A stretch of 64,000 bases of DNA from IMG/VR virus record IMGVR_UViG_3300031993_000016; one strand, written 5' to 3'. The translations under genes and the position numbers were made by a program. Every line of letters starts with the position of its first letter. Position 1 is the stretch's first letter. This DNA is from a virus (Duplodnaviria; Caudoviricetes). This document shows, in pieces, positions 15,710 to 61,019 of this stretch. The notes under the pieces are model-generated. The model saw only the letters and a list, made by a program, of their open reading frames with translations. It ran no database searches and was not told the DNA's origin.

Positions 15710-16981
15710 CTAAGCGATAGCAGTTGACACTAGAACTGTATCTCTTGCAGACAGTCTTGTTAAGTTATTTAATTTCGGCGTTTTGAAACCTTTCGGCATT
15801 GATGAAAAATCTATTTTGTTACCGCGTGCATTCATAAGAATTGCATATCCAGAAGACATCCTTCCTTGTATGAAATACTCTTTGCCAAAATATTTGACCT
15901 TATCAAATTTTCTGAAGCCACGTATCTTCCCTGTCGGAATTTTCTGCTGGCTTCTAATTCCTTTAGTTTGTTGATAATCTCCTTTAGATACACTCTTTTT
16001 AATATAGACATAGTTTGTTGCAAATAGAGGCTGTTTACCCTCAGATGCAATGACACATGCATCTAAATGGTGGTCTTTAACAATACCTTTCAACGCAAGT
16101 CTGTTAGCTTTTGTCACATAACCAAATGTTTCTGTTGCTCTTGAATATCTTTTTAACAATTGACAGCGAACACTATTCATCTGTGTAGCATACTTAAGTT
16201 GTCCTTTAGCTTTACCACCAAAATTAACTTTGATGCGACCTGCATGTAATGCAGAATGACAAGTATGACAAAGAGTAATCAGATTATCTGCTTCATCACT
16301 GCCACCTTGACTGCGATAGACGATGTGATGAACTTCTAATTTAGAATCTTTGTGTTTACCTTTACATATCTGGCACTTGTAGCTATCTCGATTAAGAACC
16401 CTTGCTTTAGTGTCTTCAAAGCCATAATTAGCGCCTTGCTGGTATCCCCAATGTTTTACTTTTTCATCGGCAAGAGCAGGATTCTTCATCAGATGGCAAT
16501 CAAATGTTGCTGTTTCTAAAACAAGCATCGATATAAGTAATATTGACTTGATATACTCAATCTCTTTGATATGACTGTTCAGTTTACTAATCATTGTAGG
16601 ACTAAATCGGTCTTTCTTGATGCTGTTTCTGCGATTGAGCCATCTCGCTTTGCGGTAGCGTGTTTTTCTGTTTCTGCGATTTCTACGATAGCTTGCTCGC
16701 TGTGTCATTTTGTCTGTGATATCATTTCTGACAATAACTTTTGACATATAAACAATCTTTCCGTCATTAGTAGAAACTGCTGCACCTAATGTTCCAGAAC
16801 CTGTATCAACCCCTAAAGTTAAACTTTGCGTATATTCTGTAGTATCGTAAGTTAACTTGATTGTAAATGGCTCTCGCTTCTTAACTTTTGCTTTGCCTTG
16901 TTTAAGCAATAATCTTGCTATTACATTCGTGCAAGGCATAAGCGGTTTGTTGTCTTTTGACAGAACATAAACCATATACAA
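15710..16981 (-). CDS. iscB: RNA-guided endonuclease IscB
   Basis: PLMP N-terminus; RuvC-I GVDTGS; Arg-rich bridge helix RRNRRNRKTRYR; RuvC-II LVLE; HNH CQIC...EVHH...NLITLCHTCH; RuvC-III HHLDA. Confidence 0.95.
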   Translation of the reverse strand: MYMVYVLSKDNKPLMPCTNVIARLLLKQGKAKVKKREPFTIKLTYDTTEYTQSLTLGVDTGSGTLGAAVSTNDGKIVYMSKVIVRNDITDKMTQRASYRRNRRNRKTRYRKARWLNRRNSIKKDRFSPTMISKLNSHIKEIEYIKSILLISMLVLETATFDCHLMKNPALADEKVKHWGYQQGANYGFEDTKARVLNRDSYKCQICKGKHKDSKLEVHHIVYRSQGGSDEADNLITLCHTCHSALHAGRIKVNFGGKAKGQLKYATQMNSVRCQLLKRYSRATETFGYVTKANRLALKGIVKDHHLDACVIASEGKQPLFATNYVYIKKSVSKGDYQQTKGIRSQQKIPTGKIRGFRKFDKVKYFGKEYFIQGRMSSGYAILMNARGNKIDFSSMPKGFKTPKLNNLTRLSARDTVLVSTAIA

Positions 16982-16994
16982 GTCCTCCTTGTAA

Positions 16995-17263
16995 ATACTC
17001 TGCTTTATGGCAGGTGATGCGTATTCTTATACTGTACCATATAAGAAATCCGACCTCCTCTCGACAATGATAATTAGGCTTTTTACACATATAACACAAG
17101 GCTGTTTTTACTCTCACCTAACTTAATGATATATGACAGAGCAACGGTCTGAGGCGACAACCGTAGGTGTCATGACCTAACTATCGTAGTTAAGATTTCT
17201 CTTAACTTAGTCTGTTGACGCATTTAAGAGAATCCCATTGGCTTTAGCCGATGGGTACGTCAA
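16995..17263 (-). ncRNA. omegaRNA (HEARO-like) scaffold of IscB
   Basis: Non-coding leader of iscB with TTGACG/CGTCAA stem, CAGACTAAG, CTACGATAG, GACACCTACGGTTG...GACCGTTGCTCTGTC and ATTGTCGAG segments; 3' boundary approximate. Confidence 0.8.
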
Positions 17264-17682: not shown

Positions 17683-17818
17683 ATTTTTGATATGGTGACT
17701 CAAAGCTATGCCTCCGCTACGTTTTATCTCCATATCTATTCGTCAAGTGTGTTGACCTTGACGACCTTACGGTGGTTTTTTACATATCGCATAACAACAC
17801 TTGCGGTATGAAGCTCTT

Positions 17819-17900
17819 TGCAGGTAGAGGGACTCGAACCCTCAAGCAAAATTGCGTGCGAGCTTAAATCGCATGTGTATTCCAATTCCACCATACCTGC
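17819..17900 (-). tRNA. tRNA-Leu(UAA)
   Basis: GCAGGTA/TACCTGC; TGCGA-TTTAAGC-TCGCA; long variable arm; GAGGG-TTCGAGT-CCCTC. Confidence 0.92.
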
Positions 17901-17911
17901 TTAAGTTTAAG

Positions 17912-18017
17912 GGCTGATGGTAGGATTCGAACCTACGATGTTCCACTATCAACAAGTTGATCAGTCTTGTATCACTTAGCTTCTCTAAGGCAGCTCGTCC
18001 ACTACTGCTACATCAGC
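17912..18017 (-). ncRNA. tRNA-like RNA with non-canonical anticodon loop and oversized variable region
   Basis: GCTGATG/CATCAGC acceptor; GCAG/CTGC D stem; GTAGG-TTCGAAT-CCTAC T arm; CTTAG-AGAAG-CTAAG in the anticodon position. Confidence 0.75.
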
Positions 18018-18021
18018 TTCG

Positions 18022-18102
18022 TACATCTGGAGGGACTCGAACCCTCAAGCTAACTGCGGCAGATTTTGAATCTGCTGTGTTTACCAGTTTCACCACAGAT
18101 GC
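18022..18102 (-). tRNA. tRNA-Leu(CAA)
   Basis: GCATCTG/CAGATGT; GCAGA-TTCAAAA-TCTGC; GAGGG-TTCGAGT-CCCTC. Confidence 0.92.
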
Positions 18103-18297
18103 GTGTTGACGGCTGTTTCTAAATAAGATCTAGGTTCAATTTAACCAGGAAAGGCAAGGAACTATGAAATCCTATAAAGCTGATTCAATCTACGTCCTGT
18201 ATCTTATCTAGACATTTAACTATTAACTAGCACCGCCTTGCTTGTTTCATATAACGATTTTAGCATTTTTTAGAAGAGGCTGTTACCTTATTTGGAA

Positions 18298-23947: not shown

Positions 23948-24038
23948 ATCTATGCCCTCCTCAACAAAATAGTTAGTGAGGTTTTATCGCCTCACTAACT
24001 ATAACGATTTTCTCTTAAATTGGGTGCTGAAATGTCAA

Positions 24039-27460: not shown

Positions 27461-27867
27461 ATTCCCTCCTTTATGCATCTGTAATTGATGTGAATTGATC
27501 TAGATAGTAACGTTTGTTGTCCAATATGATAAATAATTTATTGTTTCGAACATTACAACCTGTTCTAACTTTACGATACTTTTTAGTTGTTCCATATGTC
27601 TCTGTAACATATGCAGTACTGTCATCGTTGTAACTGTAAATAGTTATGACATAGTCACCAAATTCATTGAACTCGCTTATAGGTCTATGTGTTTCGCAGT
27701 AATTCTTTACATCAGCTTGTACAGACATATATGTTACCTCCTATATCGGTTATAACGATTTTAGTTGTATACATGGAAATAGACGAATCGAGGGTGTATC
27801 TCAATTCGTCTATCTCGAGGAGTGTTTGGTTATGAGTATCAAAGAGATCAAGCAAGGGATTGGATAC

Positions 27868-37707: not shown

Positions 37708-38936
37708 TTAGACTCTGAATTCATCTGGTCGCATGTAAATCGCTCTTGAAATTACAAGTGTTGTCTGGACTTTTACAAGGCCGCCTTCCTGATTCATGGT
37801 ACCGTTACTAAGACCTTGAATCCAGACACCTGGACACTTTATTACATCTCTTGCATTACCTTGACCATCATATTTGATAAAATACGCCTGCCTCATGTAC
37901 TCAGACGGCAGACCCATTTTTTCTGTCACCGGATTGTATACCTGCTTGCGCCATGCACGTAAACTCTCAAGAACGTTTGGCTCACAATAGCAGTTAAGTG
38001 TCCAATCAACATCTGCAAATGAAACTTTTCCAGGGAACTTGATGATTCCATTTCCATAATGTACTGTGATTGAGTCTTGGTCTTCTTTGATCTCACCTAC
38101 TTCGTCTGTTGAGAGTGTAAGTAGGTCACTGAATTCTGTTGGGGAACTTCCGTCCATATTGTATCTAATATCTTCAAATAGATTCGTGACATCTATCCGG
38201 CCTGTTACGGCTCCTCTTATTTTCATAAGATGTAGAGACTATATCATCACCTCATGTTGTTATGGGGGCTCGGCGCTACCACACGATTTTGTGGACTATA
38301 GTCGTTGAACCTTCCTCAGATCTTAAGGCTTGGCTGCTGATTGTCTAATCCAACTACTTTTTAAGCATTCACATCTATCTTTCTAGATTATGTTGTAGCA
38401 AGTTGGCTCTAAAGATTTTCCAGCAATTCACCGAGTTATTCGAAACATATTACTATGTTAAGGGACTAGATAAGTTAATCCTGATCTCGAAGTTATTTTG
38501 TGTCAATGGGACGAAGTTGTCGATACCTAACCAAGTTTGTTACGATGGCTCGCTACACCATCTCTCTTGCTTTCACAAGACGTTCAGACTATATTATCAT
38601 CTTAATATTAAGATGCTCACCCCTTCGAAGACGCTTGTCCTCTACTCCTTTCGGATAGTCGTTGAACCTTCCCTTACAGGCTTGGCTGCTGATTGCCTAT
38701 TGTATACGTGTTTAGGATTTAACCTTGCACTATCTAGATAAATTTTTTCTACTTTCGTCACCATCACGTTTACATCTAAATTAGATATTGCGTTGTGGTT
38801 TATCTAGCTTTAAGGTGTTCCAGCAATTCGATGAGTCTTTTATCATACAGATTTCTCTATACGCATACCTTAGATCACTTTAGCACTTTAAAGTGTTAAA
38901 AATATGGTTTGTGCCCATATAAAGTGGACTAAACAT
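37708..38936 (-). CDS. Tail tube protein (T4 gp19-like), spliced: join(38902..38936, 38478..38531, 37708..38164), 181 aa
   Basis: Spliced MFSPLYMGTNHMLGIDNFVPLTQNNFEIRIYNMDGSSP...YGNGIIKFPGKVSF...W; AGGAGG RBS before 38936; exons total 546 nt, in frame. Confidence 0.85.
38165..38477 (-). mobile_element. Group I intron 2 (IA-type, 313 nt, no ORF)
   Basis: Exon ends in U, intron ends in G; P GAATTGCTGGAA 38418-29; Q AATCAGCAGCC 38332-42; R GGTTCAACGACTA 38299-311; S GATATAGTC ~38237-45; P1 GGAU/GUCC. Confidence 0.9.
38532..38901 (-). mobile_element. Group I intron 1 (IA-type, 370 nt, no ORF)
   Basis: Exon ends in U, intron ends in G; P 38818-29; Q 38684-94; R 38656-68; S AATATAGTC 38587-95; P1 CAUAU/GUAUG. 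Confidence 0.9.
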
Positions 38937-41185: not shown

Positions 41186-41195
41186 TATAACGATA

Positions 41196-60259: not shown

Positions 60260-61019
60260 TTATATGACCTTTCAAAGGCTGTGTTTGTTTAAACACAGGT
60301 GAAATTGTAAATACAATTGCATTTTCTGTTCTAGCTAATCTATTGAAATCTAAATTGCCGTATCCTGCAGCATTAAGGAGTGCAATTGCAGGTTCCATAA
60401 CATTGTTAAGATTTATGTTATCGTTATAATGAATCCAAATCTCAGAATCTTTAATAATAGCTCTACATACACCTTTTGTATCATCTCTAGCATTAAGCGC
60501 ACCAATAATGGAATCTACGGATAAAGATGTGTTAATTGCAGGAATTACTACAATTGAATCGGAAGCAGTTACAGGAGTAGCTGATATATCCAATCGTACA
60601 CTTTCTTCAACATCTTTCGATTCTGATTCAGGTGCTGATTCAGGTGCTGATTGAACTTCAAATGTTTTCTTTTCTGGATTAAGCGCTTCATCACGTTCTT
60701 TATCGACTTCTGCAGCAGCTTCGCTCAAATGATGATCAGGTGCCGATTTAGGCGGTGCAGGTTTACTAGAAGTTGTACTAGGACGAATAACTTCTTTTTC
60801 AGACTCCTCAGCGTCTTCAGCAAGTGCAGATTCATCTGATATAGTATCTTCAACCTCATCAACTTGTTCTTGTAAAGTATCTAAATCATTTTCATTGAGA
60901 TACTCTTTAAGCTGTGTAACAAGTTCTGTATTGATAGGATTAGCTAATGCAGCTTTTATCTTATCTTTATGCTTACTTGCTCTATAAAGTTTAGATGCAA
61001 ATATTGCATTCATGCTCAT
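60252..61019 (-). CDS. Protein with acidic low-complexity linker
   Basis: E/S/P-rich centre with SAPESAPES. Confidence 0.7.
   Translation of the reverse strand: MSMNAIFASKLYRASKHKDKIKAALANPINTELVTQLKEYLNENDLDTLQEQVDEVEDTISDESALAEDAEESEKEVIRPSTTSSKPAPPKSAPDHHLSEAAAEVDKERDEALNPEKKTFEVQSAPESAPESESKDVEESVRLDISATPVTASDSIVVIPAINTSLSVDSIIGALNARDDTKGVCRAIIKDSEIWIHYNDNINLNNVMEPAIALLNAAGYGNLDFNRLARTENAIVFTISPVFKQTQPLKGHINE

What the first reader, a model, noticed from the sequence alone, without database searches (positions are those of the whole stretch)
17912..18017. tRNA mimic with intact elbow and acceptor but no usable anticodon loop
Seen: 7-bp acceptor, canonical T arm and a D arm with GG. The anticodon arm has a 5-nt purine loop (AGAAG, no U33), and the ~38-nt variable region has its own hairpin ACAAG/CTTGT. 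All stems pair, which argues against random decay. Inference: a non-decoding tRNA-like RNA, e.g. a decoy for anticodon nucleases, T-box/RelA sensing or synthetases.
Basis: partly seen in the sequence, partly recalled or inferred. Interest (0 to 1): 0.7.

Follow-up and report, generated by a model that had tools for sequence, protein, structure and literature searches.

The report
Conserved non-decoding tRNA-shaped phage RNA
A phage tRNA operon carries a 106-base gene that keeps a tRNA's outer frame but has a nearly invariant 53-base two-hairpin module where the anticodon arm and variable loop should be; a distant relative has the same design, so it is probably a working RNA that does not read codons, and its job is unknown.

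Summary
On the minus strand, 18017..17912 folds as a 7-bp acceptor, a D arm with GG and a canonical T arm. Between them lie a 5-bp hairpin with the 5-nt loop AGAAG and a second hairpin with a 9-nt loop. It starts 4 nt after tRNA-Leu(CAA) and ends 11 nt before tRNA-Leu(UAA).

ARAGORN misses it. Rfam's tRNA model gives 30.5 bits, and only on a local scan.

One related phage lineage (L045, from metagenomes; SbcC-like protein 55% identical) has the same gene in the same slot. Seven of the 16 frame base pairs differ between the two copies and all still pair. The 53-nt middle differs at only 3 positions (Fisher p = 1e-4). This rules out decay.

Ten other syntenic relatives have nothing, or different tRNAs, in that slot. 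None has a normal tRNA counterpart.

No single excision gives a convincing tRNA. The best one (nt 29-47) leaves a marginal Ile(GAU)-like form.

My reading is a non-decoding RNA on a tRNA chassis. The module's sequence also fits a box C/D-type kink-turn and carries a palindromic loop. That part is inferred, not shown.

The specific decoy roles are untested. Only two lineages are known and there are no expression data.

The parts
17912..18017 (-). Whole tRNA-shaped gene X (106 nt, RNA nt 1-106)
   Evidence: Sequence; fold; Rfam tRNA 30.5 bits on a local scan; own model R1 gives 128.9 bits here and 133.5 bits on the orthologue.
18011..18017 (-). Acceptor stem, 5' strand (nt 1-7)
   Evidence: Seven pairs with 17913-17919. 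In L045, 3 pairs changed on both sides and 1 on one side, and all still pair.
17990..18008 (-). D arm (nt 10-28): 4-bp stem and an 11-nt loop with GG
   Evidence: One pair is compensated in L045 (G-C to A-U) and the loop length differs by 2 nt.
17937..17989 (-). Near-invariant 53-nt module (nt 29-81) that replaces the anticodon arm and variable loop
   Evidence: Differs from L045 at 3 of 53 positions, against 20 of 55 in the frame; Fisher p = 1e-4. It is a single copy in the window.
17975..17989 (-). Hairpin H1 (nt 29-43): 5 bp with the loop AGAAG
   Evidence: The pairs never vary.
17952..17970 (-). Hairpin H2 (nt 48-66): 5 bp with a 9-nt loop that holds the self-complementary hexamer UGAUCA and a GAU triplet after a U
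   Evidence: The only substitution is in the loop (C54 to G). The pairs never vary.
17945..17980 (-). Candidate box C/D-type kink-turn. C-stem: nt 38-41 with 70-73. Bulge: nt 42-44. Tandem G.A/A.G: 45.69 and 46.68. U.U: 47.67. H2 then continues the helix. This fold excludes H1.
   Evidence: Read from the sequence and compared with the published definition (PMC5689011). The U73-to-C change in L045 turns G38.U73 into G38-C73. No experimental or covariation proof.
17920..17936 (-). T arm (nt 82-98): 5 bp with a UUCGAAU loop
   Evidence: Two pairs are compensated in L045.
17912..17919 (-). Acceptor 3' strand (nt 99-105) and the unpaired nt 106 (C). No CCA is encoded.
   Evidence: The L045 copy has A at the unpaired position.
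18022..18102 (-). tRNA-Leu(CAA), which ends 4 nt upstream of X
   Evidence: The order and the 4-nt spacer are the same in L045.
17819..17900 (-). tRNA-Leu(UAA), which starts 11 nt downstream of X
   Evidence: It is 82/82 identical in L045.
18250..18258 (-). Promoter-like motif ATCGTTATA, about 150 nt upstream of the array
   Evidence: 6 copies in the window against 1.07 expected. The same motif heads the arrays of relatives. Its promoter function is inferred.

Best explanation
X is a functional, non-decoding tRNA-shaped RNA.

It is transcribed with the phage's Leu(CAA)-X-Leu(UAA)-Gln operon. Its acceptor, D and T arms form a normal tRNA elbow and minihelix. The host's tRNA-processing enzymes (RNase P, 3' trimming, CCA addition) would therefore cut it out and stabilise it like its neighbours.

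The part that does the work is the near-invariant 53-nt module that sits where the anticodon arm and variable loop should be. It cannot present an anticodon in the normal way. Its conservation is at the level of sequence rather than pairing, which points to specific recognition by a protein or another RNA.

My preferred reading of the module is a single bent arm: a box C/D-type kink-turn (3-nt bulge, tandem G.A/A.G, U.U) leading into hairpin H2, whose loop exposes a palindromic hexamer. This arm competes with hairpin H1 for the same three bases. That competition would explain why neither helix is free to vary.

Shown:
- the frame and its compensatory changes;
- the invariance of the module;
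- the position inside a tRNA operon;
- failure of tRNA detectors.

Inferred:
- transcription, processing and CCA addition;
- the kink-turn and a protein partner.
For: - The orthologue in L045 keeps all 16 frame pairs although 7 of them changed (6 on both sides). Control shuffles reach this in 8 of 500 trials, and slid pairings give 19-51% paired against 100%.
- The module differs at 3 of 53 positions against 20 of 55 in the frame, p = 1e-4. Zero of 10 module pairs changed against 7 of 16 frame pairs, p = 0.02.
- The divergent T arm and 3' acceptor strand lie between the invariant module and the invariant tRNA-Leu(UAA). One recent transfer of the block therefore does not explain the pattern.
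- Tight tRNA-like spacing: 4 nt after Leu(CAA) in both phages.
- ARAGORN misses both copies. The Rfam tRNA model gives 30.5 bits for the window copy and no full-length match for L045.
- The acceptor pairs and the discriminator are free to change, as expected if only the shape matters.
- The module has little Watson-Crick stability of its own, -6.1 kcal/mol.
- Its sequence fits the standard kink-turn definition, including the U:U at 3b:3n that is typical of box C/D (PMC5689011).
- Both module substitutions break the extra pairs that RNAfold adds in its minimum-energy fold. They are compatible with H2 and with the G38-73 pair.
Against: - Only two lineages are known, so nothing inside the module is tested by covariation.
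- There are no expression, end-mapping or aminoacylation data.
- The kink-turn was recognised after the fact from sequence alone, and it excludes the perfectly paired H1.
- No L7Ae-type gene turned up among the roughly 40 window ORFs scanned, out of 102 candidate ORFs.
- Related phages do carry genuinely interrupted tRNA genes.
- After removing nt 29-47, the window copy passes ARAGORN at 110% of its threshold, the same level as the window's real tRNAs.
Confidence: 0.45

Rival explanations
1. X is an interrupted tRNA gene. Hairpin H1 plus the UGAU linker (nt 29-47) is a short intervening sequence between the D arm and the anticodon arm. After its removal, H2 serves as the anticodon arm of a tRNA reading Ile codons with anticodon GAU.
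For: - In the excision scan, nt 29-47 is the best single deletion. It gives 'tRNA-Ile(GAU)' in both copies, and the window copy still passes at 110% of ARAGORN's threshold, like the window's real tRNAs.
- Relatives carry tRNA genes with inserts of about 50 nt, one of them at this same junction: L057 7428-7546 (Tyr). L007 2836-2964 has one within the 5' strand of the anticodon stem (Lys).
- Conserved but unexplained tRNA introns are reported in gut megaphages (PMC6784885).
- Two relatives have a tRNA-Ile(UAU) in this array.
Against: - The product would have an A.A mismatch closing the anticodon stem, a pyrimidine at position 37, and G at position 32 in L045. It would also have a 16-nt variable strand with no conserved stem.
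- The L045 copy passes ARAGORN only at 100%. The truly interrupted genes of relatives pass at 120-125% after excision.
- The discriminator differs between the two copies.
- The supposed intron and the supposed exon parts of the module are equally invariant.
- To my knowledge, no bacterial or phage mechanism is known that removes a 19-nt hairpin at this position.
Confidence: 0.2
2. X is a decoy or sensor ligand: it soaks up a host tRNA-directed defence nuclease, or acts as an uncharged-tRNA mimic on T-box leaders, RelA or a synthetase.
For: - The elbow and acceptor are intact and there is no decoding loop.
- It is conserved in a lytic-looking phage next to real tRNAs.
- Phage tRNA regions are known battlegrounds with tRNA-cleaving defences, for example the abstract of PMC13096335 listed.
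- The host is probably a Firmicute (Hol44-type holin and RecU). From general knowledge, T-box control is common in that group.
Against: - No defence or target gene is linked to X here.
- The discriminator and acceptor stem vary between the copies. A T-box antiterminator or a synthetase would read them.
- The module resembles no anticodon stem-loop of a known nuclease target.
- X is absent from ten syntenic relatives, so it is not a general need of this phage group.
Confidence: 0.15
3. X is a decaying tRNA pseudogene or a chance tRNA-like fold with no function.
For: - Standard detectors fail.
- The fold energy is not exceptional, z = -1.74.
- Its distribution among relatives is patchy.
Against: - Between phages whose SbcC-like proteins are 55% identical, every frame pair is kept through 7 changes and the middle is almost unchanged.
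- A decaying gene would lose pairs and would not keep a 53-nt stretch nearly invariant.
Confidence: 0.04
4. The conserved middle works at the DNA level, as an operator or a nuclease recognition site made of inverted repeats, and merely lies inside a tRNA-like gene.
For: The module holds several inverted repeats, including a 6+6 repeat with a 2-bp spacer and a 6-bp palindrome with a GATC core.
Against: - The repeats sit exactly between conserved, compensated RNA stems in a tRNA operon.
- No regulated gene follows: the next feature is a tRNA 11 nt away.
- The module occurs once in the window.
Confidence: 0.04

Closest known systems
Canonical long-arm (class II) tRNAs such as the flanking tRNA-Leu genes (Rfam RF00005)
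   Same: 7-bp acceptor, D loop with GG, T arm with a UUCGAAU loop, a helix directly after the D stem and a second helix in the variable-arm position. Placed and spaced like a tRNA inside a tRNA operon.
   Different: The helix in the anticodon position has a 5-nt loop without U33. The 'variable' region is 38 nt. Missed by ARAGORN and marginal or absent with the Rfam model.
tRNA genes with 'enigmatic', highly conserved introns in Lak megaphages of gut Prevotella (Devoto et al. 2019, PMC6784885)
   Same: Over-long tRNA genes in gut phages that bacterial tRNA finders cannot classify. The inserted sequence is nearly identical between divergent phages. No Rfam match and no known mechanism.
   Different: Lak inserts are 79-114 nt, lie after position 37, and leave a normal tRNA when removed. 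In X no anticodon arm remains outside the module, and excision gives only a marginal tRNA.
Interrupted tRNA genes of related phages found here (L057 7428-7546 and 7900-8018; L007 2836-2964)
   Same: Related phages carry them in the same kind of array (L057 is syntenic; L007 was found only by its identical acceptor and T arm). One insert lies at the same D-arm/anticodon-arm junction.
   Different: Their inserts are about 47-53 nt and unrelated in sequence. Removing them gives high-scoring Tyr and Lys tRNAs.
Phage T4 RNA species I and II (small stable RNAs of unknown function encoded in the T4 tRNA gene region; shown in Fig. 1 of PMC2330249, otherwise from my own knowledge)
   Same: Non-tRNA stable RNAs encoded inside a phage tRNA cluster and matured with the tRNAs. 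Function unknown.
   Different: No sequence relation was tested or expected. I did not compare structures.
tmRNA tRNA-like domain
   Same: An acceptor and T-arm minihelix with no anticodon arm, joined to a non-tRNA domain.
   Different: No G3.U70 pair (U-A and C-G here). Only 106 nt. Not called by ARAGORN's tmRNA search. Only a 14-bit T-arm fragment match in Rfam.
Box C/D-type kink-turn (PMC5689011)
   Same: A 3-nt bulge ending in GU, then tandem G.A and A.G, then U:U at 3b:3n, flanked by Watson-Crick stems on both sides.
   Different: A bacterial phage context with no known box C/D machinery. The fold is only read from sequence and competes with H1.
Engineered 'tRNA scaffold' for expressing recombinant RNAs (Ponchon and Dardel 2007; from my own knowledge)
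   Same: A tRNA body used as a chassis for processing and stability, with a foreign functional RNA in place of the anticodon region.
   Different: That is a laboratory design that keeps the anticodon stem. X would be a natural counterpart.

Membership tests
tRNA (RF00005) | 7-bp acceptor stem, D arm with G18 G19, and T arm with the conserved loop | tested here: met
   Kept through compensatory changes in L045.
tRNA (RF00005) | 5-bp anticodon stem with a 7-nt loop, U33 and a purine at position 37 | tested here: not met
   H1 has a 5-nt loop without U33. H2 has a 9-nt loop; read as 7 nt it has an A.A closing pair, C37, and C or G at position 32.
tRNA (RF00005) | Recognised by standard detectors at their thresholds | tested here: not met
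   ARAGORN misses both copies. Rfam on the whole window does not list it. A local scan gives 30.5 bits against 29 for the window copy and no full-length match for L045.
Intron-containing tRNA gene | Removing one contiguous segment restores a canonical tRNA | tested here: inconclusive
   The best excision (nt 29-47) gives an Ile(GAU)-like form. It passes ARAGORN at up to 110% (window copy) but only 100% (L045 copy). Positive controls from relatives pass at 120-125%.
Intron-containing tRNA gene | Intron-less alleles of the same tRNA exist in relatives | tested here: not met
   No relative examined has an uninterrupted counterpart in this slot or elsewhere in the fetched loci.
tmRNA | G3.U70 alanine identity pair and a tag reading frame with pseudoknots | tested here: not met
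   Pair 3-70 is U-A in the window and C-G in L045. The length is 106 nt. There is no tmRNA call.
Kink-turn (box C/D type) | [quoted passage not shown] | tested here: inconclusive
   The sequence fits the definition in PMC5689011 at nt 38-52 and 62-73. The one substitution in the C-stem keeps pairing. The fold excludes H1, and nearest-neighbour energies do not decide: -20.9 against -23.9 kcal/mol, with non-canonical pairs not scored.
Kink-turn (box C/D type) | Kinked fold on binding an L7Ae-family protein | not testable with these tools
   Needs probing, FRET or binding assays.
Known Rfam families other than tRNA (Y RNA-like, ribozymes, T-box and others) | A covariance-model match | tested here: not met
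   Nothing beyond chance-level matches at E up to 10.

The most novel reading that the evidence does not exclude
X is a natural 'tRNA scaffold'. The phage uses the host's tRNA-maturation pathway to produce and stabilise a small effector RNA. The effector's invariant module switches between a closed hairpin (H1) and a kink-turn arm that recruits a host or phage protein, or pairs with a second copy through its palindromic loop. X would then be one member of a wider, unrecognised set of non-decoding or interrupted tRNA-shaped genes in the tRNA arrays of gut and rumen Firmicute phages.
Probability: 0.2. Interest if true: 0.75.

Novelty: new variant of a known kind. Interest (0 to 1): 0.55.

Why it matters
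Phage tRNA genes are usually read as codon-usage helpers or as replacements for tRNAs destroyed by host defences. Here a conserved gene in such an operon keeps only the parts of a tRNA needed for processing and carries an invariant non-tRNA module. That would show that phages also use the tRNA pathway to deliver other small RNAs.

It also bears on annotation. Standard tRNA finders miss this gene, and they also miss at least five over-long tRNA-shaped genes in one related phage. The tRNA content and RNA biology of gut and rumen phages are therefore under-counted.

If the kink-turn reading holds, X would be a compact natural protein-binding RNA on a self-processing chassis, which is useful as a design template.

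Tried and rejected
Searches for more homologues, all without result:
- Exact and degenerate pattern scans of IMG/VR: T arm plus acceptor, 5' half, and H2 region.
- Two scans of JGI metagenomes. One found nothing; the other gave 59 hits, all chance.
- BLAST against cultured phages.
- Profile-guided locus searches in IMG/VR and in species-representative genomes gave only distant relatives without X.
- A pattern search with 3 mismatches in 401 genomes of the class of a MAG that holds a related phage contig found nothing in those searched.
- All twelve contig look-ups, made through the SbcC-like and S1-domain neighbours, were used. They yielded only one lineage with X.
- Models R1 (whole gene) and R2 (module alone) found no further copy in the window or in any relative.

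Readings considered and rejected:
- Hammerhead or another small ribozyme. The CUGA-like stretch lacks the required G, it differs in L045, and Rfam gives no hit.
- An archaeal bulge-helix-bulge splice motif. The bulges are not arranged that way (read).
- A tmRNA-like tag. There is no G3.U70 pair.
- The extra pairs in RNAfold's minimum-energy fold (nt 53-56 with 70-73). Both L045 substitutions break them.
- A shared AGAAG-loop hairpin in a different tRNA-like gene of L162. The heptamer is common in coding sequence and one coding copy has as many flanking pairs, so this may be chance.
- GAP32 'Sup-tRNA' and Klebsiella phage tRNA-Met. These are ordinary tRNAs that share only the T loop.

Full report
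**What is there**

The window is part of a large, divergent tailed phage. Its GC content is about 35% and almost all genes lie on the minus strand. Recognisable genes include HNH endonucleases, an IscB with its HEARO guide RNA, a SbcC-like ATPase, a UvrD/Dda-like helicase, a T4-type portal, a Hol44-type holin and RecU. The holin and RecU families suggest a Firmicute host; this is an inference.

ARAGORN and Rfam find three tRNA genes on the minus strand: Leu(CAA) at 18102-18022, Leu(UAA) at 17900-17819 and Gln(UUG) at 17683-17608.

The finding, which I call X, fills the gap between the two Leu genes. It starts 4 nt after Leu(CAA) and ends 11 nt before Leu(UAA). The parts list gives the coordinates.

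**Is it more than chance?**

The fold alone is not remarkable: z = -1.74, and 9 of 200 shuffles fold as well. ARAGORN does not call it. Rfam lists it only on a local scan, at 30.5 bits against a cut-off of 29, aligned over the acceptor and T arm but not the middle.

The decisive evidence comes from relatives. The phage has no close kin in cultured phages, IMG/VR or JGI metagenomes. Its SbcC-like protein, however, has hundreds of metagenomic homologues.

I fetched contigs for twelve of these and found a conserved block: helicase, SbcC, a small ORF and an S1-domain ORF, followed by a variable tRNA array.

One lineage has Leu(CAA), a 107-nt homologue of X and Leu(UAA) in the same order, with the same 4-nt spacer. 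This lineage is represented by L045, L046 and L047, from bovine and other metagenome assemblies, and its SbcC is 55% identical to the window's.

**Pattern of change between the two copies**

- In the frame, 20 of 55 aligned positions differ.
- Seven of the 16 frame pairs changed, six of them on both sides, and every pair is still standard.
- Shuffling partners reaches the observed values in 8 of 500 trials. Sliding the partners drops pairing to 19-51%.
- The 53-nt module differs at only 3 positions: one base in the H2 loop, one U-to-C at nt 73, and one deleted U near the T stem. Fisher's exact test against the frame gives p = 1e-4.
- None of the module's 10 pairs changed, against 7 of 16 in the frame (p = 0.02).
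- The divergent T arm and acceptor 3' strand lie between the invariant module and the tRNA-Leu(UAA), which is 82/82 identical. The spacers on both sides also differ.

A single recent transfer of the block therefore cannot explain the conserved patches. Purifying selection on the module's sequence is the simpler account.

A decaying pseudogene is excluded. The frame is selected for shape and the module is selected for sequence.

**What relatives have in this slot**

| Locus | Content of the array |
|---|---|
| L043, L155 | Run from the promoter-like motif and a leader straight into Leu(UAA). |
| L161 | Leu(UAA) then Ile(UAU). |
| L120 | Ile(UAU). |
| L060 | Only Gln. |
| L162 | Leu(UAA), odd tRNA-like genes, Tyr and Gln. 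|
| L057 | Five over-long tRNA-shaped genes. |
| L059 | None. |
| L121, L122, L154 | The contigs end too early to tell. |

None has a normal tRNA that corresponds to X. In the two lineages that have it, X comes together with Leu(CAA).

**Could splicing restore a tRNA?**

The question matters because related phages do have interrupted tRNA genes.

- In L057, Rfam aligns a Tyr(GUA) gene with a ~50-nt insert that it places within the D arm. By eye the insert lies between the D arm and the anticodon arm.
- In L057 there is also a Lys-like gene with a 49-nt insert in the anticodon loop.
- L007 has a Lys(UUU) gene whose acceptor and T arm are identical to X's, with an insert of about 53 nt in the 5' strand of the anticodon stem.
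- Conserved, unexplained tRNA introns are also on record for Lak megaphages (PMC6784885).

I deleted every segment of 8-74 nt from X, from its orthologue and from these controls, and ran ARAGORN at rising stringency.

| Sequence | ARAGORN result |
|---|---|
| Controls after excision | Tyr and Lys tRNAs that still pass at 120-125% of the default threshold. |
| The window's three real tRNAs | Pass at 110%. |
| X, window copy | The best excision is nt 29-47 (H1 plus the UGAU linker), giving an 'Ile(GAU)' form that passes up to 110%. |
| X, L045 copy | The same excision passes only at 100%. |

The Ile(GAU)-like form has an A.A mismatch closing the anticodon stem and a C at position 37. It has G at position 32 in L045 and a 16-nt variable strand without a conserved stem.

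The discriminator is C in one copy and A in the other. I know of no bacterial mechanism that would remove a 19-nt hairpin at that junction.

If the hairpin stayed, it would project from the D-stem/anticodon-stem hinge. From general structural knowledge, that hinge contacts the large-subunit helix 69 on the ribosome. I therefore keep the interrupted-gene reading as the main rival, at about 0.2, but do not prefer it.

**How the module may fold**

Nearest-neighbour energies are weak for the module alone (-6.1 kcal/mol) and do not separate the alternatives. Two features stand out in the sequence.

First, H2 is flanked on both sides by UGAU. The helix can therefore continue through U.U, A.G, G.A and U.U.

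Second, if nt 38-41 pair with nt 70-73, then nt 42-44 form a 3-nt bulge directly before the tandem G.A/A.G pairs.

That arrangement is the standard kink-turn. With U:U at the next position and a bulge ending in GU, it is specifically the box C/D type, which folds on protein binding rather than with metal ions alone (PMC5689011).

The U73-to-C change in L045 turns a G.U into a G-C in that stem.

This fold and H1 compete for the same three bases, nt 39-41. Two overlapping structures that must both be kept would explain why neither helix varies.

The 9-nt loop of H2 exposes a self-complementary hexamer, which would allow loop-loop pairing between two molecules. All of this is inference from two nearly identical sequences. 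I give the kink-turn about 0.3.

**Most likely mechanism**

An over-represented motif, ATCGTTATA, has 6 copies in the window against 1.07 expected. One copy lies about 150 nt upstream of the array, and the same motif heads the arrays of relatives.

I infer that X is co-transcribed with the tRNAs. I also infer that it is released by RNase P and 3' processing because of its tRNA frame, then given CCA and made stable.

It then acts through the invariant module, most likely as a binding platform for a protein. The acceptor end is free to vary, so a conserved aminoacylation or T-box identity is unlikely.

The particular decoy roles remain open.

**Comparison with what is known, and novelty**

X works like a tRNA-processed small RNA. 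The closest analogues are:

- the stable RNA species I and II in the T4 tRNA region;
- the tRNA-like domain of tmRNA;
- the laboratory 'tRNA scaffold'.

X fails the membership tests for tRNA (anticodon arm, detectors) and for tmRNA (no G3.U70). It cannot yet be filed as an intron-bearing tRNA.

I found no description of this module in Rfam or in the papers searched. I rate it a new variant of a known kind, with moderate interest. It is a real, conserved and oddly built RNA, but it is known from two lineages only and has no functional data.

Noticed in passing
L057 6783-8216 (+), a related 213-kb phage contig: At least five over-long (114-134 nt) tRNA-shaped genes that ARAGORN misses. Rfam aligns two of them as tRNAs with ~50-nt inserts: one at the D arm/anticodon arm (Tyr GUA) and one inside the anticodon loop. 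The inserts, and the spacers between the genes, share a hairpin followed by an ACAGCAA-like motif.
   Followed up: partly
L007 2836-2964 (-), an IMG/VR contig with 22 tRNA genes: A 129-nt gene with the same acceptor and T arm as X. Removing about 53 nt from the 5' strand of the anticodon stem leaves a clean tRNA-Lys(UUU), which passes ARAGORN at 120%.
   Followed up: partly
L162 6669-6771 and 7072-7177 (+); L057 6783-6898 (+): A different family of tRNA-like genes. They have a tRNA-Leu-type D arm, a 9-10-bp terminal stem in the two L162 genes, and an unusual T loop (UGCAAAU, G in place of the universal U55). Their middles are unrelated to each other. One carries a hairpin with the same AGAAG loop as X, which may be chance.
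   Followed up: partly
window 17819-17900 (-) versus L045 11356-11437: tRNA-Leu(UAA) is 82/82 identical between two phages whose SbcC-like proteins are 55% identical, while the spacers on both sides differ. This is unusually strict conservation for a phage tRNA.
   Followed up: partly
window 18250-18258, 1809-1817, 24000-24008, 27751-27759, 41186-41194 (all -), 60420-60428 (+): The motif ATCGTTATA is over-represented (6 copies against 1.07 expected). The same motif precedes the tRNA arrays and leader RNAs of relatives, so it is probably a phage promoter element.
   Followed up: partly
window 15710-17263 (-): An IscB-like HNH/RuvC ORF (423 aa) directly downstream of a full-length HEARO (omega) RNA at 101.9 bits, inserted next to the tRNA array. 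Relatives carry TnpB genes at nearby positions (L043, L060).
   Followed up: no
window 38214-38487 and 38564-38883 (-): Two group I introns in tandem (90.8 and 71.8 bits), about 80 nt apart.
   Followed up: no
window 17741-17763 (-), in the 135-nt spacer between tRNA-Leu(UAA) and tRNA-Gln: A perfect 7-bp hairpin with a 9-nt loop. The spacer is not conserved in L045.
   Followed up: no
window RNA nt 14-20 and nt 70-76 of X (18004-17998 and 17948-17942, -): The D loop and the 3' strand of the module share the same heptamer beginning UAG. In L045 the fourth base is C in both places, against U in both places here. This is a parallel change I cannot explain. The second GG could offer an alternative partner for the T loop.
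   Followed up: no
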